From Candidatus Poribacteria bacterium (GTDB taxonomy: Bacteria; Poribacteria; DTPJ01), in assembly GCA_011334435.1 (NCBI GenBank), contig DTPJ01000363.1, forward strand, positions 1-24,467: 24,467 nt of DNA, given 5' to 3'. The notes beneath the pieces were generated by a model. That model had not been told where the DNA came from. It made no database searches and worked only from the letters and a program-made list of their open reading frames with translations. Of the stretch, positions 1,891 through 10,635 are shown in pieces. The position numbers and the translations under genes are program-made. The stretch's first letter is position 1. Each line of letters opens with the position of its first letter.

Positions 1891-2802
1891 ATGAGTTTTG
1901 AACCGAGTTATATTAAATTGTATAGGACAGGTGAACTCGCAAAACGAGTATCAAGTGCAATTGATATATTGAGAGAATGTAAGCTTTGCCCTAGGGAATG
2001 CGGAGTTAATCGGTTAGATGGCGAAAAGGGATTTTGCAGATCGGGTAGATTTGCCATGATCTCAAGTGTAGGACCTCATTTCGGCGAAGAATCACCATTA
2101 GTTGGACGTCGTGGTTCAGGGACTATATTCTTCACAAATTGCAATCTTGACTGCGTTTTTTGCCAAAATTACGATATAAGCCACTTAGGCGATGGAAGAG
2201 ATGTTGATTCTGCATACTTGGCAAATGCGATGTTGTCACTTCAAAACTACGGTTGTCATAATATTAATTTTGTCACACCAACTCATTATGCACCTCAAAT
2301 ATTGGAAGCATTGATCATCGCCATTGAAAAGGGGTTAAAGGTCCCGTTGGTCTATAACTGCGGAGGATACGAGTCGTTAGATATGATAAAATTGCTTGAT
2401 GGCATAGTTGATATATACATGCCTGATATAAAATATGGCAATAATGAGGTAGCCAAAAAATACTCAAAAGCTCCGAATTATTTTGACATTGCGAAGTCTG
2501 TCGTCACAGAAATGCACAGGCAAGTTGGCGATCTGGTTATAAATAGTCAAGGAATAGCAGAAAGAGGTCTTTTGATAAGACATCTGGTTATGCCAAATGG
2601 TATAGCTGGAACTGATAAGGTCGTTGACTTTGTGGCTAAACTATCGAAAAACACATATATTAACATTATGGCACAATATCGCCCACAATACAAAGCTAAC
2701 GATTATCCAGAGATCAATAGGCGGATCACAACAGATGAGTATATATCAGCGATATTATTGGCAGAAAAAGCAGGATTAACAAGAGGATTCCGAAATGAAT
2801 GA
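1891..2802 (+). CDS. Radical SAM protein, PflX/COG1313-like (putative activating-enzyme family); alternative start TTG at 1888
   Basis: CNLDCVFC (CxxxCxxC), N-terminal CKLCPREC...FC, HFGEESPLVG, GCHNINFVTPTH, DIYMPDIKY, RHLVMP. Confidence 0.85.
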   Translation: MSFEPSYIKLYRTGELAKRVSSAIDILRECKLCPRECGVNRLDGEKGFCRSGRFAMISSVGPHFGEESPLVGRRGSGTIFFTNCNLDCVFCQNYDISHLGDGRDVDSAYLANAMLSLQNYGCHNINFVTPTHYAPQILEALIIAIEKGLKVPLVYNCGGYESLDMIKLLDGIVDIYMPDIKYGNNEVAKKYSKAPNYFDIAKSVVTEMHRQVGDLVINSQGIAERGLLIRHLVMPNGIAGTDKVVDFVAKLSKNTYINIMAQYRPQYKANDYPEINRRITTDEYISAILLAEKAGLTRGFRNE

Positions 2803-3265
2803 TGAAAATGAGATAAAATTCATCGCTGATGAAATGCTTGGGAAATTAGCTAAGTGGCTAAGAACTATTGGTTATGATACCGTTTACTATCGCGATGGGA
2901 CAGATAGCAAACTCGTCCAACGGGCATTAGAGGAAAATAGGATAATCCTGACAAGAGACACTGAACTTGCAGAAAGGAAATTAGCCCGAAACTGCATATT
3001 CATTAAAAGCGAAAACGTTTGGGAGCAATTTAATCAAGTTGTTAATGAACTTAAATTAGATACAAAAAGTAAATTGTTGACAAGATGCCTTATATGTAAT
3101 GTCCAAATTCAATCTGTTGAGAAAGAAAGCGTAAATGGTCTTGTCCCGCCTTATACATATCAAACTCATGATGTATTTTATAGATGCCCAAGCTGTGGAA
3201 AGATATATTGGTCTGGAACGCATAAGGATAATATGATTGAGTTGATAAGTAATTTGATTAGCTGA
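2795..3265 (+). CDS. Mut7-C RNase domain protein (DUF82, PIN-like with Zn ribbon)
   Basis: FIADEMLGKLAKWLRTIGYDT, ILTRD, RCLICN...CPSCGKIYWSGTH. Overlaps the upstream stop codon. Confidence 0.88.
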   Translation: MNDENEIKFIADEMLGKLAKWLRTIGYDTVYYRDGTDSKLVQRALEENRIILTRDTELAERKLARNCIFIKSENVWEQFNQVVNELKLDTKSKLLTRCLICNVQIQSVEKESVNGLVPPYTYQTHDVFYRCPSCGKIYWSGTHKDNMIELISNLIS

Positions 3266-3272
3266 TTTTGTA

Positions 3273-3302
3273 TTGACTCTATAAAATTATATATGGTATA
3301 AT
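3273..3302 (+). promoter_or_regulatory. Strong sigma70 promoter with extended -10, driving the three-gene cassette
   Basis: TTGACT (3273-3278), 18-bp spacer, TG-g-TATAAT (3294-3302), in an AT-rich gap. Confidence 0.7.
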
Positions 3303-3369
3303 TCTTGATAAGATACAGAAAACATTTTATTTTATTAGTATTTATCTTATTTTTATTAAGGGGAATTAT

Positions 3370-4116
3370 GTGTTAAGCTTCCCACGCTACCTAAATAGCA
3401 GTTTTACAATAAATTTTGAGCGACAAATATCTATTCGTAGAAAAGATCACGACTTCGAGGATATTCTAAAAAATAAGGGTTTTTTACAACCTCAAACAAT
3501 TCAGATTCCGGATGAATTTGGTCCTGAAGTGCCTCGAATGATTTTCTATTCTTCTGACAAATCTTGTCAAATTATTATAAGTCAGATTAACATTGTGTTG
3601 AATTTGATACATCCAGATGATAGACAGGAAGATGTGAATGAATGCAAGGAGCAAATTTTATATGCAGCGCAAGTTTCTTTTGATCTGCTTAAAAAACTTG
3701 GTGAAATTAAGCCATACTTTTGCGGTTTGGTTAATACAGTCCGTTTGCATAGTAAAGAGAAAGAAAATGACGTATTAGAAATACTTACAAAATTATTATC
3801 CAAAGATAGTGGATTCAGCAGATTGCATGATATTGTTGTAAAGATTACCAATGTTGTCTCAGATCGTTTTTTCAGCAATATAACATGGAAAAACTATAGG
3901 ATATGGAAAATTCCTCAAACAACAGAACAGGATTGGCAAAGACTATCCCAAACAGAAGCTATTGAAAAAGGTATTGAAATTGTTGTTGATTTCAATGATA
4001 GATATATGTTCAATGAAAATTCTAATTATTTCTCAAGCTCAGAGATTGTGACTGAGATCGTTGAAGGAAACTTTAATGAATTAAATATGGCGATTCAAAG
4101 GTTAAAGGAATTGTAA
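3370..4116 (+). CDS. Hypothetical protein, TIGR04255-like (uncharacterised, sporadically distributed family)
   Basis: 248-aa GTG ORF with RBS AAGGGGA. The segments PDEFGPEVPRMIFYSSDKSCQIIISQ and GIEIVVDFNDR resemble TIGR04255-type proteins. Family call made by eye. Confidence 0.55.
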   Translation: MLSFPRYLNSSFTINFERQISIRRKDHDFEDILKNKGFLQPQTIQIPDEFGPEVPRMIFYSSDKSCQIIISQINIVLNLIHPDDRQEDVNECKEQILYAAQVSFDLLKKLGEIKPYFCGLVNTVRLHSKEKENDVLEILTKLLSKDSGFSRLHDIVVKITNVVSDRFFSNITWKNYRIWKIPQTTEQDWQRLSQTEAIEKGIEIVVDFNDRYMFNENSNYFSSSEIVTEIVEGNFNELNMAIQRLKEL

Positions 4117-4119
4117 AAA

Positions 4120-4632
4120 ATGATTTATTTTGACGAACAGATGGATTCTGAATCTGAATCTTTCAACAGAGTTAAATATTATTTTCCCAGCAAAACAATT
4201 GGGAATTCCAGTTCAATAATTCCAACACAAAAAGAAGTGATAAGATTTTTTCTTTATGAACCAATTGATTCTTTTACTCCAATAGATTATACTACTCAAA
4301 GTGAAGTTGAACCATCTTCTGCATTAATTGGTATGCTAAATCTTTTAATAGAAAATCAGAGGCGAGATTTATTAAATAATAATGAATTATTGCAATATAT
4401 TAACTTAATTAATGATATGATTAAAAGGAATTATCGTGGCGTCACTTTCATTGAACATAGCTTTTATAAGGATCCTGAAATTCCTAATCAAGAGCAAATA
4501 TGCTTTGAAATTCATATCACTGCTGAACCAAGTGAAATAATTGGTGACCAGAAAAAGTTTTACAAAGAATTAATAAAGTCTGTTCCTTCTGATAAACGTA
4601 AGTTCTTCACTTTCACTTACCGTGTTTCTTAA
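4120..4632 (+). CDS. Hypothetical protein, candidate antitoxin partner of the HEPN protein
   Basis: 170-aa ORF starting 3 nt after the upstream stop and ending 2 nt before the HEPN start. S/T/P-rich N-terminus; compact C-terminal alpha/beta segment with YKDPEIPNQEQICFEIHI. Confidence 0.65.
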   Translation: MIYFDEQMDSESESFNRVKYYFPSKTIGNSSSIIPTQKEVIRFFLYEPIDSFTPIDYTTQSEVEPSSALIGMLNLLIENQRRDLLNNNELLQYINLINDMIKRNYRGVTFIEHSFYKDPEIPNQEQICFEIHITAEPSEIIGDQKKFYKELIKSVPSDKRKFFTFTYRVS

Positions 4633-4634
4633 CT

Positions 4635-5045
4635 ATGCAACCTATCGAATTTTTAAATCTTGCTCACAAGTTAATAGATTCAGCCGATGAAGCCGAACTC
4701 AGGACAGCGATAAGCAGAGCATACTACTATGTTTACCATTCCATAAAAAATGATTTGGTAGGTTCTGATACTAATCTTACACATGATGTAATGATTAACT
4801 GTATCCAAGAGGCTAATATTAATGGTAACAAAGTGGCAGAATTTGAGGAATTAGGACAAACTATAAGAGATCTAAAAACTGATAGGATATTTGCTGATTA
4901 TAAAATAAATAAATCATTAAGCCAAGAAACCTGTCATACCATGATTAAGAGATGCGAGACTGCGGTAGAAGATTTTAAAGAGTGTAAGAGATTGGGAATT
5001 ATTGATGCAGCAAGAAATTATTTGAGACAATATAAATATATTTAA
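4635..5045 (+). CDS. HEPN domain protein (UPF0332/COG1895-like)
   Basis: LRTAISRAYYYVYH, a central THD, and LKTDRIFADY; 136 aa, predicted all-helical. Confidence 0.85.
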   Translation: MQPIEFLNLAHKLIDSADEAELRTAISRAYYYVYHSIKNDLVGSDTNLTHDVMINCIQEANINGNKVAEFEELGQTIRDLKTDRIFADYKINKSLSQETCHTMIKRCETAVEDFKECKRLGIIDAARNYLRQYKYI

Positions 5046-5122
5046 CCACATCTCCTCTTTACATATCCAACCTGAAAGAACATTCTAAAAATCCAAATAA
5101 TAACATAAAGTAAGGAGCAAAG

Positions 5123-6526
5123 ATGAGCCAAAAGATGAATTTCCTATTATTTATGCCTGAGCAACTTAGAGCTGATGCAGTTAGTGCAATAATAGATAAT
5201 GGAGCAAAAACACCTAATATGGAACAAATAGGTTCAGAGGGCGTTACATTCACCAACTGCTTCGTCCAACATACCGTTTGCACTCCGTCAAGATGTAGCA
5301 TGTTCACGGGTTTATATCCTCATAGCCATGCCCATAGAACATTGACATATTTGCTTAGACCTCACGAACGTAATTTGTTTCGGGAACTTAAAGAGAATGG
5401 TTATTATGTCCAATGTTTCGGTAAAAATGACATACTATCTCAGGACTCAATATCTCTTTGTTTTGATTCTGTCCAACTACGTATAAAACCAGAACATAGA
5501 GATATTAACCCATGGGACAAGGATCATAAACACTACAAATCGTTTTACTATGGTTGCAGAAAAAATACAAAGGACACTGATTGGGCGATAATTCAGAGTG
5601 CCTTAAACTTCCTTGATGACAAAAGAGATCAGCCTTTTTGCCTTTTTCTTCCGATGAGTTTTTCTCATCCACCTTATATTGTTGAAGAGCCTTATTTCTC
5701 TATGTATGATCGCTCAAAAATGCCTGAACCAATTCCCGCAAAATATGACGATAAAAGGCGATTTATGAGAATGATACACGAATCTTATGGTCTGGATAGA
5801 CTTGATGAGTTAGATTTTAGGGAGATAAAGGCGACTTATTATGGTATGACGTCTCGTATTGACGATCAACTTGGCATTTTGATAGAAAAGCTAAAATCAA
5901 TTGGACAGTATGATAATACCGCAATATTTGTATTCTCCGATCATGGCGATTATGCTGGTGATTACGGGCTGACAGAAAAATGGTGGACGGGATTTCAGGA
6001 CTGCCTAATACATACACCATTCATAGCAAAAGTCCCTGGATATAAACCAATTGGTCGTAGAGACACTTTTATAGAGATGATCGATCTTTTTCCGACAATC
6101 CTTGAGCTTGCAGGTATTGAACCAAAACATTATCATTTCGGCAAAAGCCTCATGCCTATAATAAAAGGTGAAACTTCTCATCACCGCGACTGTGTCTTCG
6201 CTGAGGGTGGACATCTTCCAGATGAAAAGCATTGTTACGAACCCTTAATTGAAGGGATATACTATGATAAAGTGCGTCTGCCTCTAAAAGACCCAAAGGT
6301 ATTCTCAAAAGCTGTCATGATAAGGAATGAGAGATATAAATATATATATTGCCCTGATGATATAGATGAATTATATGATCTGAAAACCGATCCACAAGAG
6401 ATAAATAATATCGCAAATGAATCTGGTGTTGAAGACATAAAAAGGGAACTCAGGGATCAGATCACCGCTTGGTTACTCAAAACATCTGATAGCCCGCCTT
6501 TGGAATGGGACAAACGGGGTTGGTAA
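5123..6526 (+). CDS. Cys-type formylglycine-dependent sulfatase (S1 family), no signal peptide
   Basis: VCTPSRCSMFTGLYP (CxPxR), FSDHGD, ELYDLKTDPQEINNIA. RBS AAGGAG. Confidence 0.92.
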   Translation: MSQKMNFLLFMPEQLRADAVSAIIDNGAKTPNMEQIGSEGVTFTNCFVQHTVCTPSRCSMFTGLYPHSHAHRTLTYLLRPHERNLFRELKENGYYVQCFGKNDILSQDSISLCFDSVQLRIKPEHRDINPWDKDHKHYKSFYYGCRKNTKDTDWAIIQSALNFLDDKRDQPFCLFLPMSFSHPPYIVEEPYFSMYDRSKMPEPIPAKYDDKRRFMRMIHESYGLDRLDELDFREIKATYYGMTSRIDDQLGILIEKLKSIGQYDNTAIFVFSDHGDYAGDYGLTEKWWTGFQDCLIHTPFIAKVPGYKPIGRRDTFIEMIDLFPTILELAGIEPKHYHFGKSLMPIIKGETSHHRDCVFAEGGHLPDEKHCYEPLIEGIYYDKVRLPLKDPKVFSKAVMIRNERYKYIYCPDDIDELYDLKTDPQEINNIANESGVEDIKRELRDQITAWLLKTSDSPPLEWDKRGW

Positions 6527-7728: not shown

Positions 7729-10635
7729 CTATATCTGCTTAAATACGCTCACGTGTATTTTTCCGCCTTTATCAGCCTTTAATATCCAGTAATTATTTTC
7801 TTTTGTCGCTTTTATATCTCCGTCAATCTTAATATCGGAAAACTCTTCAGCATTGACAGGAAGTTTGATCACTGCATAAACATCATCAGGCAGATCAACC
7901 TGAATATCAAAGCTATTATCTGTTTTTTGCCACCAAACAGAGATATTTCCCTTAGGAGTTGGCATACGTCCCTTAGCCCAAAGAAGGTCAGCAGGTTCAG
8001 GTGCGATTAGGACTTTGGAAAATCCCGGCTCAATGGGTCTGATCCCTAATTGATATGTGCTTAAAAAATAAGTAGGTGCTGCACTCCAAGCGTGGCAATG
8101 GCTACGAGTCCAACGACTTGATGGCTCATATCCTGGGAATGTCTCCCAGCAGGTAGTAGCGTCTTTATCAAGCATAAATCCCCAATGCTTGCGTGAAAGA
8201 TCAAGTATCTTCTGAAAATCGCCTGTTTTAGCCAACGCCTCAAATGTGAAGAACATCATAAATGGGCTTCCAATCCTTACAAATCCATCAGGTGCAGAAG
8301 CTATGTATTGCTGTATTATCTCTTTTCTGTCATCAGTAGCACAGTCACAGAGAAAGACTACGGTATTGGTCTGTTGACTGACAACGGGACTGAGTGTGCC
8401 ATCTGCTCTTATACAATCTATGTAAGCCTGTCTTTCATCGCTCCAAAGCCGTTTATTTATCCCAATTTTTACTTTTTCAGCAATTTTGAGATAACGATCA
8501 GCGTCAGAATCTTTGCCGAGTATCTTTGCAACTTTGGCGGTTCTGCGATATGCCTCTACAAGCCATGCGTTTTGATGTGTTATAATACCTGATCCGGGCG
8601 TATCCATAGGTGCCCAATCAAGCATGTTCCAAGCCTCTATTTCAAGGAGATCGTCACCGTTAAGCATTTTTTCACAATTGTTAGCCTGTTTAGCCATATA
8701 TGGATATATTTCTTTTAAGAAGTCCATATCGCCTGTCATTTGATAATATTCCTCACATGCCAAAGCCCAAAGCATGCTCCATGCGGTCAATATATTTTCC
8801 CATCCGCTTGGCACTTGTGACTCTACCAATGGCGATCTGTTCAGGGACTGACCCGCAAGTATTAAGCAATGTCTTGATAATGCGTATTCTCCGAATGCGA
8901 CGTAGTTGACAGCACCTTCATTTCGCGAATCGCCTACCCAAAATGTCTGCTCATAAGTTGGGCAATCAACGTAGGTATCCTCACTACAAAGCCTTGTTGT
9001 ATATCTGCCGATACGCCATATCTGGTTAAGCAGATGATCATTACAGATGAAATCGCCACGATGGATTACAGGATAGGTATTCAGAAGCAAGCGCACTTGA
9101 CGAATCTGCATAGGCTCAGCGAGGTTTCGGATAGTCAATATGAAATATCTACCGCCTCTGCGAATAACTGAATGAAATTTTTGCCAACCAGATCGGGTTA
9201 TATATCGCATAACGTTATTCATTCCCCATGTGTAATCAAGGACGCCATCTTGATAAGATTCAAATCCGAGCCAATCCATTATAACACCTTCTGGGGCATC
9301 TACCTCAAATTCAAGGAATCCGACAGCCATTTTGCCAAAATCAAATATTATCTCAATATCTGATCCATCATCTGTGGGATATATGGTAGTGACGTTATCG
9401 TTCACGGAACACATAGCATTTAGATCATCTATTCGGGGTTTGCCCTGAGCTTGTTTTGCCCAGACAGTAAGATTAAATACATGGGCGCTATTCTCGTCAT
9501 TATGATCTATCGGCTTTAGATATTTTGTATAGGGTTTTAGGTCATCAACGGTTTTAGCGTTCCATACAGATAAGAAATCCTGATCATCGCTTGATGTGAA
9601 AGGTCCAAAAGTGGCAAAATGTGCATTACTGACGAAAGGTGCAGAGGGTTCAAGCATTATCGGCGATTCCACAGGAAAATTAGTAGACCATTCGTGATAT
9701 GTCCCTGTAACATTCCATAACAAAAGATTTTCACCGGGACGAAGCTTAAAATTTACTGTTGACCCTCCTGCCCATCTGCTAAAATAGTCAGGATTTTGTC
9801 CTATATCTTCTCCATTGACACGAAGCGTCCCTGTTGCGTTAACCCATCTGCTTTGATACTTGAATGTAACATCGGTTTCTTGGTCAACTTTTATCGTTGT
9901 GGCTATAAATCCGCAGATTGGACGAGGATTTGCGTCAATATCACCCGGAAGCAAGTTGTTACGAAGGTTCATTGCCCAAACCTGCTTCGGGGGATTGACA
10001 AGTCTGGAAGATATAACAGAAACAGGCGAAATAGGTTCTTCTGTCAGGAAAGGGATCGGTCTTGGGACAAGGTTAGTCCAAGGTTGACAGCCAACGTCGC
10101 CGATCTCTTCCGCATTTTCCCAAGATAGATCATCAAAGCATATATCTTCCCATCCAAGTGGATCAACTCTTGCGTCAAAATGCTCTACCCATGCCTGTTG
10201 ACAGGCAATTCTGGGCGTCCGTCGGTCATAAGATGGGTGTTCGCTAACCTTCCATGAACTATCAGTGATAACGGTTTCCACATCACCATCTAACATCTTT
10301 ATATCTATTTGTGCTAATAACCCTGTCGGTGCAGGGATATATTGGAACGTCCCTATTCCATAATGAGTTACCAAGACTGATATAGCATTGTCTCCAATAT
10401 AAAGCAGGTCGCTAATATCATAAGTGTCATAATGATATGCAAAATGCCAGCTTCGTATAGGACCTTGACCAAGCCTTTTTCCATTCACCCATACGACATA
10501 TCTGGAATCTGCGGTTATATGGAGTTTTGCATCTGTTATGTTTTCATTTAGATCAAACTCTTTCCTCGCACAAAACCAGAAATTCTGAGCTGATTCTTTG
10601 CCTTTAATAGTTATCCATTTTGCTTTCCAGTCCAT
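7729..10635 (-). CDS. Alpha-L-rhamnosidase, GH78 (large multidomain, cytoplasmic)
   Basis: N-terminal LHITADSRYVVWVNG...GQGP; DFGK; catalytic region DCPTYEQTFWVGD (D-x4-E-x6-D spacing as in Bacillus sp. GL1 RhaB); ATTCWE; SHCHAWSAAP; C-terminal PTPKG. RBS GAGG. Confidence 0.93.
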   Translation of the reverse strand: MDWKAKWITIKGKESAQNFWFCARKEFDLNENITDAKLHITADSRYVVWVNGKRLGQGPIRSWHFAYHYDTYDISDLLYIGDNAISVLVTHYGIGTFQYIPAPTGLLAQIDIKMLDGDVETVITDSSWKVSEHPSYDRRTPRIACQQAWVEHFDARVDPLGWEDICFDDLSWENAEEIGDVGCQPWTNLVPRPIPFLTEEPISPVSVISSRLVNPPKQVWAMNLRNNLLPGDIDANPRPICGFIATTIKVDQETDVTFKYQSRWVNATGTLRVNGEDIGQNPDYFSRWAGGSTVNFKLRPGENLLLWNVTGTYHEWSTNFPVESPIMLEPSAPFVSNAHFATFGPFTSSDDQDFLSVWNAKTVDDLKPYTKYLKPIDHNDENSAHVFNLTVWAKQAQGKPRIDDLNAMCSVNDNVTTIYPTDDGSDIEIIFDFGKMAVGFLEFEVDAPEGVIMDWLGFESYQDGVLDYTWGMNNVMRYITRSGWQKFHSVIRRGGRYFILTIRNLAEPMQIRQVRLLLNTYPVIHRGDFICNDHLLNQIWRIGRYTTRLCSEDTYVDCPTYEQTFWVGDSRNEGAVNYVAFGEYALSRHCLILAGQSLNRSPLVESQVPSGWENILTAWSMLWALACEEYYQMTGDMDFLKEIYPYMAKQANNCEKMLNGDDLLEIEAWNMLDWAPMDTPGSGIITHQNAWLVEAYRRTAKVAKILGKDSDADRYLKIAEKVKIGINKRLWSDERQAYIDCIRADGTLSPVVSQQTNTVVFLCDCATDDRKEIIQQYIASAPDGFVRIGSPFMMFFTFEALAKTGDFQKILDLSRKHWGFMLDKDATTCWETFPGYEPSSRWTRSHCHAWSAAPTYFLSTYQLGIRPIEPGFSKVLIAPEPADLLWAKGRMPTPKGNISVWWQKTDNSFDIQVDLPDDVYAVIKLPVNAEEFSDIKIDGDIKATKENNYWILKADKGGKIHVSVFKQI

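What the first reader, a model, noticed from the sequence alone, without database searches (positions are those of the whole stretch)
3273..5045. Self-contained AT-rich three-gene cassette (TIGR04255-like, unknown, HEPN): candidate undescribed tripartite toxin-antitoxin or anti-phage system
Seen in sequence: a dedicated near-consensus promoter (TTGACT-18-TGgTATAAT), then three ORFs separated by only 3 and 2 nt. The cassette is clearly AT-richer than the metabolic genes (hand count 15/60 GC at 4321-4380 versus 29/60 at 8761-8820; single lines only) and sits among unrelated housekeeping genes. Established: HEPN domains are RNase effectors in TA, Abi and CRISPR systems and usually pair with an MNT antitoxin. 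No MNT (GSxARG...DxD) is present here. Inference: ORF2 is a non-MNT antitoxin and the TIGR04255-like ORF1 is a sensor or chaperone, analogous in logic to toxin-antitoxin-chaperone triads. I do not recognise this triad as a named system.
Basis: partly seen in the sequence, partly recalled or inferred. Interest (0 to 1): 0.75.

Follow-up and report, generated by a model that had tools for sequence, protein, structure and literature searches.

The report
Three-gene HEPN toxin-antitoxin-like cassette
Three tightly packed, foreign-looking genes form one dispensable cassette that looks like a poison-antidote pair (a HEPN-type probable RNase and its partner) led by a conserved helper protein of unknown function. 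The same helper heads similar cassettes carrying other poisons in many bacterial phyla, and I found no published description of it.

Summary
There are three same-strand ORFs (248, 170 and 136 aa) with 3- and 2-nt gaps and a near-consensus promoter. GC is 30.3% against 37.4% for the genome, in the lowest 0.4% of same-size windows.

- **ORF3** is an AF0298/UPF0332-type HEPN.
- **ORF2** has two parts. Residues 74-170 are 63-68% identical to a ~104-aa protein that pairs with close HEPN homologs in two-gene modules lacking ORF1. Residues 1-~73 are a predicted disordered arm found only in ORF1-linked versions.
- **ORF1** belongs to an unannotated family of 572 cluster representatives. It shares the TIGR04255 fold (TM 0.57-0.72) but has no sequence-level match to that family.

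In 43 of 52 informative loci, ORF1 homologs lead the same tight trio. The third gene varies (PIN 32, HEPN 2, unknowns), and a short motif is conserved in the middle protein's arm.

Metagenome contigs from the same habitat carry a form that lacks exactly the three genes.

My best reading is a tripartite toxin-antitoxin-like module with logic similar to toxin-antitoxin-chaperone (TAC) systems. No function has been tested, and ORF1's role is inferred.

This scan has already noted TIGR04255-led trios on other DNA (460 notes). This window's leader is a sister family that differs in sequence.

The parts
3273..3302 (+). Sigma-70-type promoter TTGACT-18-(TG)TATAAT
   Evidence: 11 of 12 positions match, the best site in 2700-5400. 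The region 3266-3380 is kept in the natural variant that lacks the genes.
3308..3350 (+). Perfect 8-nt inverted repeat in the leader (ATAAGATA ... TATCTTAT, 27 nt apart). It could be an operator or an RNA element; untested.
3370..4116 (+). ORF1, 248 aa. Leader protein of an unannotated family with a duplicated beta-alpha-beta4-alpha (TIGR04255-like, TBP-like) fold. Acidic, pI 5.3.
   Evidence: Family of 572 cluster representatives. AF2 model pLDDT 87.9, pTM 0.85. TM 0.57-0.59 and 0.72 to 'TIGR04255 family protein' models. No HMM or profile match to TIGR04255. Leads trios in 43 of 52 loci.
4120..4338 (+). ORF2 residues 1-73: acidic, predicted disordered N-terminal arm, present only in ORF1-linked versions. 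Carries a degenerate copy (LLIENQR, residues 75-81, at the domain boundary) of the motif shared by middle proteins of other trios.
   Evidence: pLDDT <50 for residues 1-86. The arm is absent from stand-alone partners. Motif analysis. pI 4.25.
4339..4632 (+). ORF2 residues 74-170: compact alpha-beta-beta-alpha-beta domain, the conserved partner (putative antitoxin) of this HEPN subfamily.
   Evidence: 63-68% identical to 103-104-aa proteins encoded 2 nt upstream of HEPN homologs in two-gene pairs. pLDDT 73-87. No MNT motif or sequence match.
4635..5045 (+). ORF3, 136 aa: HEPN domain of the AF0298/UPF0332 type (putative RNase toxin). Invariant R84 (4884-4886), D88, Y89 (4899-4901), H50 (4782-4784), H35 and R28.
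   Evidence: PF05168 at 26.5 bits. Profile hits to 9xbd (E 1.7e-6) and 2hsb/AF0298 (E 1.2e-3). Invariant columns. The alternative-His active site is described in PMC3710099.
3381..5044 (.). 1,664-bp segment missing in natural variants of the same locus (presence/absence polymorphism covering ORF1 codon 4 to the ORF3 stop codon).
   Evidence: Joint 3380->5045 in run X5 (7,480-nt contig, 115 nt on the shorter side) and in X1 (119-nt contig, word depth 3.6, beside the full form at 8.19).

Best explanation
The cassette is a horizontally acquired, dispensable, three-component toxin-antitoxin-like module.

- ORF3 is a HEPN-fold protein of the AF0298/UPF0332 type. It most likely acts as an RNase toxin, using Arg84 with an alternative histidine (His50) in place of the canonical Rx4-6H.
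- The C-terminal domain of ORF2 (residues 74-170) is its cognate neutralising partner. The same two-gene pair exists on its own elsewhere.
- ORF2 also carries an acidic, disordered N-terminal arm that occurs only when ORF1 is encoded upstream.
- ORF1 is a conserved protein with the TIGR04255 fold. I infer that it binds this arm and so sets the stability or activity of the antitoxin. It would either protect the antitoxin, as SecB does in toxin-antitoxin-chaperone systems, or release the toxin when ORF1 is titrated or triggered.

Shown: the architecture, the two-part nature of ORF2, the interchangeability of toxins behind ORF1, the shared arm motif, the fold, and the natural loss of the unit.

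Inferred: toxicity, neutralisation, ORF1-arm binding, and the direction of control.
For: (1) Trio conservation. Of 78 non-redundant loci, 52 have >=1 kb downstream of ORF1. Of those, 43 have two tightly coupled downstream genes (typical junctions -4 and +2 nt) and 4 more have looser spacing.

(2) Toxin swapping. The third gene is PIN in 32 loci (two subtypes), HEPN in 2, a ~215-aa unknown in 4, and singletons in 5. On the ORF1 tree the toxin label needs at least 24 changes. The window's HEPN clade (support 98/81) is sister to a PIN clade.

(3) ORF2 is two-part. Its C-domain is 63-68% identical to stand-alone ~104-aa partners of 58-67%-identical HEPNs that have no ORF1 upstream. The arm is disordered in the model.

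(4) Shared motif. Middle proteins paired with different toxins share an N-terminal Mxx[YF]xES-like start and a central hydrophobic-hydrophobic-E-N-x-S-x-S-R-P motif, while their C-terminal halves differ by toxin type.

(5) ORF3 keeps six invariant polar residues that fit the published alternative HEPN active site.

(6) Canonical TIGR04255 genes, which share the fold, also lead two overlapping downstream genes. I saw this in 30 loci of this phylum and on contig C143 of this genome.

(7) Foreign composition, patchy spread across at least 8 phyla, and a natural variant lacking exactly the three genes.
Against: - No experiment exists for any member.
- The complex prediction for ORF1+ORF2 gave no verdict, so it counts neither for nor against.
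- The window's own ORF2 has lost the Ser-rich half of the arm motif that its relatives L031 and L022 keep. The ORF1-ORF2 link may therefore be weakened in this copy.
- ORF3 lacks the canonical Rx4-6H histidine, so RNase activity is a prediction.
- Variants that deleted the whole operon coexist with the full form. This argues against strong post-segregational killing.
- ORF1 has many invariant polar residues (R166, S169, N170, N175, R177, D207, N209, D210, R211, N215, E216). That looks more like an enzyme or a specific ligand site than a passive chaperone.
Confidence: 0.5

Rival explanations
1. Same three-part module, but its role is abortive-infection phage defence. ORF1 would sense a phage protein that displaces it from the antitoxin arm and frees the HEPN RNase, as shown for the SecB-type HigBAC system and the lambda tail protein.
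For: TAC systems work this way (cited in PMC11980606). One distant trio lies on Leptospira phage LE1. One atlas cluster of ORF1 look-alikes has phage members. The cassette has foreign composition and is lost and gained in the population.
Against: No PADLOC match. No relatives in 2.9 million viral contigs or 72,556 plasmids. The window's neighbours are metabolic genes, not defence genes. No phage data exist.
Confidence: 0.15
2. ORF1 is an enzyme rather than a binder. It would be a kinase- or ligase-like modifier that covalently marks the Ser/Arg-rich motif of the middle protein, or marks the toxin, to switch the module.
For: The best solved-structure matches include the McsB protein arginine kinase domain (Z 9.5) and arginine kinases (Z 8.0, 7.5). 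ORF1 has many invariant Arg, Asp, Asn and Glu residues. The conserved target-like motif contains S-x-S-R-P. One atlas cluster fuses this fold to a P-loop kinase-like AAA_17/18 domain.
Against: The Z values are barely above this tool's stated noise level of 7-8, and TBP scores nearly the same (8.7-8.8). Sequence identity is about 10-12%. No nucleotide-binding motif was identified. Active-site residues could not be superposed here.
Confidence: 0.12
3. The cassette is not a working poison-antidote system. It would be either a non-toxic HEPN-based RNA- or nucleotide-binding regulatory module, or a decaying remnant in this genome.
For: The HEPN motif is non-canonical. The window's ORF2 has lost part of the arm motif. 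Cells that deleted the operon persist alongside carriers. The ORF2 C-domain has no known antitoxin fold.
Against: All three frames are intact with tight coupling. Six polar HEPN residues are invariant across 10 homologs down to 31% identity. The same leader precedes bona fide PIN toxin pairs in most loci.
Confidence: 0.15
4. ORF1 is the transcriptional regulator of a three-gene toxin-antitoxin operon, as omega is in omega-epsilon-zeta or PaaR2 in PaaR2-PaaA2-ParE2. It would bind the promoter through its TBP-like sheet because the antitoxin lacks a DNA-binding domain.
For: The gene order regulator-antitoxin-toxin fits. No DNA-binding domain was found in any middle protein tested. TBP is among the best structural matches. 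The leader contains an 8-nt inverted repeat.
Against: ORF1 and 12 relatives are acidic to near-neutral, pI 5.0-6.9. A regulator role would not explain the ORF1-linked, motif-bearing arm on the antitoxin. The fold match to TBP is marginal.
Confidence: 0.08

Closest known systems
Toxin-antitoxin-chaperone (TAC) systems: M. tuberculosis HigB1-HigA1-SecB(TA), E. coli HigBAC, CmdTAC
   Same: Both have three genes. In both, an antitoxin carries an extra disordered segment tied to a dedicated third protein, and different toxin families plug into the same third component. TAC systems are known to defend against phages (PMC11980606; PMC9098466).
   Different: The third protein here is not SecB-like; it has a duplicated beta-alpha-beta4-alpha TIGR04255-type fold. 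The extra segment is N-terminal, not a C-terminal ChAD. The helper gene comes first. No binding or function has been shown.
TIGR04255-family genes and the three-gene cassettes they lead (uncharacterised; no paper found)
   Same: Same fold (TM 0.57-0.59 to AFDB clusters, 0.72 in the ESM Atlas). Same position as first gene of a tight trio. Same size, about 250 aa.
   Different: No sequence relationship is detectable. The TIGR04255 HMM gives nothing for ORF1 or for 10 distant family members, and hhalign probability is 0.9%. The two families coexist in this genome.
HEPN-MNT (type VII) toxin-antitoxin pairs, e.g. Shewanella SO_3166/SO_3165 (PMC4621449)
   Same: A small alpha/beta protein is encoded directly upstream of a ~135-aa HEPN with a 2-nt junction. 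The HEPN belongs to the nucleotidyltransferase-associated HEPN-T (PF05168) group.
   Different: The partner has no GS...DxD motif and no sequence match to MNTs, and only weak fold hints. The HEPN has R-x3-D-Y instead of Rx4HxY. A third gene is present.
AF0298 (PDB 2hsb, UPF0332) and PDB 9xbd/9xbc HEPN proteins
   Same: These are the closest solved relatives of ORF3 by profile (E 1.2e-3, 1.7e-6, 1.3e-5). They share the SRAYY helix, the insert histidine and the R...DY motif. PMC3710099 proposes the insert histidine as an alternative active site.
   Different: The function of these solved proteins is not established in the papers I could search. Identity is low.
Three-gene TA operons with a separate regulator (omega-epsilon-zeta; PaaR2-PaaA2-ParE2)
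   Same: The order is first-gene accessory, then antitoxin, then toxin.
   Different: ORF1 is a 248-aa acidic protein with no recognisable DNA-binding domain. That comparison rests on my own knowledge of those systems.
Class 8 hicBA modules (Gerdes 2024, PMC10865869)
   Same: HicB there has about 250 unexplained N-terminal residues in two domains ahead of the antitoxin fold. That is the size and position expected if a leader of this kind were fused to an antitoxin.
   Different: Homology to ORF1 or TIGR04255 was not tested here. This is a lead only.

Membership tests
TIGR04255 (NCBIfam) | Match to the TIGR04255 HMM above its 30-bit cut-off | tested here: not met
   No hit at E<=1 for ORF1 or for 10 distant members of its family. 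The same HMM finds a different gene in this genome at E 3e-35.
TIGR04255 (NCBIfam) | Profile-profile homology to canonical members | tested here: not met
   hhalign of A4 (13 sequences) against A6 (15 canonical members): probability 0.9%.
TIGR04255 (NCBIfam) | Shared three-dimensional fold | tested here: met
   Foldseek against AFDB clusters: four 'TIGR04255 family protein' models among the top five, TM 0.57-0.59, E down to 7.6e-9. ESM Atlas: TM 0.72 over 220 residues.
TIGR04255 (NCBIfam) | First gene of a tight three-gene unit. This is my own working criterion, not a curated one. | tested here: met
   Nearly all of 30 canonical loci show two overlapping downstream genes. The ORF1 family shows this in 43 of 52 loci.
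HEPN domain (Pfam PF05168, HEPN-T) | HMM match above the gathering score | tested here: met
   26.5 bits against a cut-off of 22, covering profile positions 12-114 of 117.
HEPN domain (Pfam PF05168, HEPN-T) | Catalytic Rx4-6H motif | tested here: not met
   The motif is R84-I-F-A-D88-Y89, with no His, and is invariant in 10 homologs. It fits the AF0298-like variant with an alternative conserved His (H50) from the helix-2/helix-3 insert described in PMC3710099.
HEPN-MNT type VII toxin-antitoxin | Partner is a minimal nucleotidyltransferase with GS...DxD | tested here: not met
   No Pfam or NCBIfam nucleotidyltransferase hit. No MNT in the profile search of the PDB. Several NTase-fold chains appear at Z 5-6, including MNT 1ylq at 5.4, but this is below the noise level.
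Toxin-antitoxin-chaperone (TAC) | Third component is a SecB-like chaperone | tested here: not met
   The ORF1 fold matches TIGR04255, TBP and guanidino-kinase-type sheets. No SecB appears among the matches.
Toxin-antitoxin-chaperone (TAC) | Antitoxin carries a disordered extension that makes it dependent on the third protein | tested here: inconclusive
   A disordered extension linked to ORF1's presence is shown. It is N-terminal, and dependence is untested. The complex prediction gave no verdict.
Type II toxin-antitoxin module (general) | Toxin arrests growth and the cognate antitoxin neutralises it | not testable with these tools
   Needs expression experiments.
Known anti-phage defence systems (PADLOC-DB 2.0) | Any component matches a system model | tested here: not met
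   No hit at E<=1 for any of the three proteins. DefenseFinder and TADB were not available.

The most novel reading that the evidence does not exclude
Proteins with the TIGR04255 fold, including this sequence-distinct sister family, are the common control subunit of a very widespread, undescribed class of three-component toxin modules. ORF1 would act enzymatically, with kinase- or ligase-like chemistry on the conserved Ser/Arg motif in the antitoxin's disordered arm, rather than as a passive chaperone. That would be a new way of arming and disarming PIN, HEPN and other toxins.
Probability: 0.12. Interest if true: 0.85.

Novelty: new variant of a known kind. Interest (0 to 1): 0.62.

Why it matters
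Three-component toxin-antitoxin systems with a dedicated helper are so far known mainly from the SecB-type TAC systems, which have turned out to be phage sensors.

This work shows a second, structurally unrelated helper fold with two properties:
- It leads cassettes with interchangeable PIN, HEPN and unknown toxins across at least eight phyla.
- It is always coupled to a modular middle protein whose arm carries a conserved short motif.

Neither the ORF1 family (572 cluster representatives, no Pfam or NCBIfam model) nor TIGR04255 has any literature that I could find. Large two-gene TA surveys state that they cannot see multigene systems (PMC10440598).

If the inferred logic holds, it gives a testable general rule for how ordinary two-gene toxin pairs are captured and placed under a new layer of control. 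It would also assign a role to a large family of 'hypothetical' proteins.

The stand-alone HEPN pair and the ORF1-linked version of the same pair offer a natural with/without comparison for experiments.

Tried and rejected
- **ORF1+ORF2 complex prediction:** no verdict (score 0.00, mark 0.32). It counts neither for nor against binding.
- **'ORF2 C-domain is a degenerate MNT':** a by-eye motif fit (HS..K / C.E in place of GS..R / D.D) and several NTase-fold chains at Z 5-6. No sequence support, and the Foldseek best hit is E 0.046 to unrelated alpha/beta domains. Left as inconclusive.
- **Sequence membership of ORF1 in TIGR04255:** rejected.
- **Clean insertion borders from relatives:** only the radical-SAM/Mut7-C genes are shared with two relatives, and downstream synteny is not conserved.
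- **Flanking direct repeats or att-like scars:** none convincing.
- **ORF1 relatives on mobile elements:** none in viral contigs or plasmids.
- **Literature:** 'TIGR04255' gives 0 papers. Searches for a tripartite PIN or HEPN TA with a third component found only TAC, retron and ptuXYZ systems. No paper was found for PDB 9xbd/9xbc.
- **Pfam on the genes downstream of canonical TIGR04255:** no hits.
- **Solved-structure matches for ORF1** (McsB Z 9.5, TBP Z 8.8): too close to the noise level to name a function.
Full report
**The observation**

The three ORFs are as described: 3370-4116 (248 aa, GTG start with AAGGGG 6 nt upstream), 4120-4632 (170 aa) and 4635-5045 (136 aa). All lie on the + strand, 3 and 2 nt apart.

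The promoter TTGACT-18-TATAAT with a TG extension at 3273-3302 matches 11 of 12 positions. It is the best site in the region, although promoter-like sites as a class are no more frequent there than in shuffles.

The cassette has 30.3% GC against 37.4% for the 4.6-Mb genome. Only 0.43% of same-size genome windows are as AT-rich. The flanking genes are a radical-SAM enzyme, a Mut7-C RNase and a sulfatase.

**ORF3**

ORF3 passes Pfam's HEPN model (PF05168, 26.5 bits, cut-off 22). A profile of ORF3 and nine homologs finds the solved HEPN proteins 9xbd and 9xbc (E 1.7e-6 and 1.3e-5) and AF0298/UPF0332 (2hsb, E 1.2e-3).

The canonical Rx4-6H histidine is absent. The motif is R84-I-F-A-D88-Y89, and R28, H35, H50, R84, D88 and Y89 are invariant down to 31% identity.

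This is the pattern that the HEPN survey describes for AF0298-like HEPN-T proteins. There the arginine is kept and a second conserved histidine from the helix-2/helix-3 insert is proposed as an alternative active site (PMC3710099). RNase activity is therefore plausible but not shown.

**ORF2**

ORF2 has no Pfam, NCBIfam or PADLOC match.

Close ORF3 homologs (58-67% identity) lie in two-gene pairs. Each is preceded, with the same 2-nt junction, by a 103-110-aa protein, and no ORF1 lies upstream. That small protein is 63-68% identical to ORF2 residues 74-170.

ORF2 is therefore a HEPN-partner domain plus a ~73-residue N-terminal extension. In the AlphaFold model, residues 1-86 have pLDDT below 50, while residues 87-170 form an alpha-beta-beta-alpha-beta domain at pLDDT 73-87. 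The extension is acidic (pI 4.25).

Fold and profile searches do not place the C-domain in any named family. Nucleotidyltransferase-fold chains appear only at noise level.

**ORF1**

ORF1 has no family match, but it belongs to a real family. An exhaustive profile search found 572 cluster representatives at E<=1e-3 and 380 at E<=1e-10. Conserved motifs are RFFSN.T..NYR.W and GIEI..DFNDRY.FNE.

Its model is confident (pLDDT 87.9, pTM 0.85) and is a tandem beta-alpha-beta4-alpha duplication. The nearest predicted structures are 'TIGR04255 family protein' models, with TM 0.57-0.59 in AFDB clusters and 0.72 over 220 residues in the ESM Atlas.

Among solved structures, the McsB and arginine-kinase catalytic domains (Z 9.5, 8.0) and TBP (Z 8.7-8.8) lead, only just above this tool's noise level.

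Sequence membership of TIGR04255 fails. The HMM gives nothing for ORF1 or for ten distant relatives. A profile-profile comparison with 15 canonical members gives probability 0.9%.

**What ORF1 travels with**

I fetched 93 further loci from genome and metagenome contigs and analysed them with scripts.

Of 78 non-redundant loci, 52 have at least 1 kb downstream of ORF1. Among those 52:
- 43 carry two tightly coupled same-strand genes, with modal junctions of -4 and +2 nt.
- 4 more carry two downstream genes with looser spacing.

In the 43 tight trios the third gene is:
- a PIN domain protein in 32 (two subtypes of about 133 and 151 aa; Pfam E ~1e-14);
- HEPN in 2 (the window and L031);
- a ~215-aa unknown in 4;
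- a singleton type in 5.

A maximum-likelihood tree of 62 ORF1 homologs needs at least 24 changes of toxin type. It places the window in a clade (support 98/81) with L031, L022, L028 and L043, sister to a PIN-type clade. L022, the window's nearest relative, also encodes the HEPN-partner domain.

Hosts include Bacillota, Thermodesulfobacteriota, Myxococcota, Chloroflexota, Cyanobacteriota, Actinomycetota, Armatimonadota and Geobacter.

**The middle protein is modular everywhere**

In PIN-type trios the two PIN subtypes have different C-terminal halves in the middle protein. They nevertheless share an N-terminal Mxx[YF]xES-like start and a central motif, roughly L-L-x-N-G-(I/L)-M-E-N-x-S-x-S-R-P...P-G-E.

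An HMM of that motif finds it at a similar position in middle proteins paired with other third genes:
- L009, E 7e-6;
- L017, L079, L083 and L075, weakly;
- the HEPN-type L031, 'GLNENESSSLP';
- L022, 'LTENGSLSLSP'.

The window's ORF2 aligns there with 'LLIENQR'. It keeps the E-N core but has lost the Ser-rich half and the following linker.

The motif stays constant while the toxin changes, and the arm is absent when ORF1 is absent. The simplest inference is that the arm is ORF1's handle on the antitoxin.

**Canonical TIGR04255**

The curated HMM finds genes in 67 of 151 genomes sampled from this phylum. One is on another contig of this genome (C143; E 3e-35). In nearly all of the 30 loci fetched, two overlapping genes follow it, including 167-aa and 130-aa genes on C143. 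None of those tested has a Pfam match.

So two families with the same fold but no detectable sequence relationship show the same operon logic, and both are present in this genome.

**Natural loss**

The stretch occurs in hot-spring, sediment and microbial-mat metagenomes.

When contigs from four runs were laid on 2300-6200, a joint 3380->5045 appeared, skipping 1,664 bp:
- in run X5, on a 7,480-nt contig with 115 nt on the shorter side;
- in run X1, on a 119-nt contig at word depth 3.6, beside the full-length path (a 1,783-nt contig spanning 3310-5092) at depth 8.19.

The skipped part runs from ORF1 codon 4 to the second base of the ORF3 stop codon. The variant keeps the promoter, the ribosome-binding site and the first 11 nt of ORF1. 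I therefore read it as a deletion of the cassette rather than an ancestral empty site; this is inference.

It shows that the three genes are gained or lost as one unit and are dispensable. It also argues against strong addiction. In the variant the promoter sits directly upstream of the sulfatase gene, so it need not be cassette-specific.

These are assembler contigs, not reads, so frequencies are only indicative.

**Mobility and defence context**

No relative of ORF1 was found in 2.9 million viral contigs or in 72,556 plasmids.

One distant relative (25% identity) lies on Leptospira phage LE1. There it leads a 248 + 99 + 216-aa trio annotated as hypothetical proteins.

Other loci sit beside further toxin-antitoxin genes. 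No clean insertion borders could be defined from relatives, and no flanking repeats were found.

**Mechanism**

I commit to a tripartite toxin-antitoxin-like module:
- a HEPN toxin;
- an ORF2 C-domain antitoxin;
- ORF1 acting through the ORF2 arm to set antitoxin stability or activity.

The closest analogue is the SecB-type TAC systems, where the chaperone protects the antitoxin and a phage protein can break that link (PMC11980606). My confidence is about 0.5.

The rivals are:
- the same module working as an abortive-infection sensor;
- ORF1 as an enzyme that marks the Ser/Arg motif;
- a non-toxic or decaying module;
- ORF1 as the operon's regulator, which its acidic pI of 5.0-6.9 across the family makes unlikely.

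The complex prediction gave no verdict.

**Novelty**

I found no paper that mentions TIGR04255 and none describing a PIN or HEPN toxin pair with this kind of leader.

Earlier notes of this scan describe TIGR04255-led trios on other DNA: 460 notes in at least 350 genomes. I reached the same architecture independently, for a family that the TIGR04255 model does not detect.

The kind of system (toxin-antitoxin plus helper) is known. The helper fold, the N-terminal arm and the motif are not. I class it as a new variant of a known kind.

Noticed in passing
G000 contig C143 (L120: 3-737, 734-1237, 1221-1613): The window's own genome carries a second three-gene unit on another contig. It is led by a canonical TIGR04255 gene (E 3e-35), followed by overlapping 167-aa and 130-aa genes with no Pfam match.
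   Followed up: partly
window 3266-3269: In runs X5 and X7 the sequence diverges from the window immediately after the Mut7-C stop codon; a different segment follows, beginning CTGACCC(G/A)TCCTCAG. The intergenic region upstream of the cassette promoter is therefore a second variable point between strains.
   Followed up: no
L032: 876-1622, 1619-1864, 1881-2695: This locus has an ORF1 homolog and a middle gene cut off right at the NENESS motif. A 68-aa holin-like gene and a 203-aa lysozyme-like gene follow, so this is a trio apparently broken by, or lying beside, phage lysis genes.
   Followed up: no
L136 (Leptospira phage LE1, KF114877.1 82459-84152): A phage-borne trio (248 + 99 + 216 aa, all annotated hypothetical) lies directly upstream of a His-Xaa-Ser (HxsA/D/B) radical-SAM system. 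Its third gene shares an LMQGDIL...VIxSxSCD motif with the ~215-aa third genes of L009-type loci.
   Followed up: partly
L018, L080-L085 (e.g. L018: 2667-3422): In an actinomycete-type group, the gene after ORF1 is a 251-aa protein with a PIN domain at residues 103-238. The arm and the toxin seem fused in one protein. Another unknown gene of 135 or 188 aa follows.
   Followed up: no
L043: 3617-4516: A close relative of the window's ORF1 is followed by a single 299-aa protein. It has an arm containing two S-T-L-S-(R/G)-P-E repeats and C-terminal HEAT repeats, and there is no third gene.
   Followed up: no
window 2795-2802: The Mut7-C RNase gene (2795-3265) overlaps the end of the radical-SAM gene (1888-2802) by 8 nt. 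Mut7-C is kept in both relatives, preceded by a radical-SAM-sized ORF in one (G002; G001's upstream ORF gave no match to the window). It looks resident, not part of the cassette.
   Followed up: partly
PDB 9xbd / 9xbc (external): Two recent unnamed HEPN structures are the closest solved relatives of ORF3. They differ by Y->F in the same R...DY motif, which suggests someone is studying that tyrosine. No paper was found in the library.
   Followed up: partly
ESM Atlas cluster (row 4): A 436-aa protein cluster combines an ORF1-like fold (TM 0.67) with P-loop kinase-like AAA_17/AAA_18 domains. This is a possible clue to nucleotide-dependent function.
   Followed up: no
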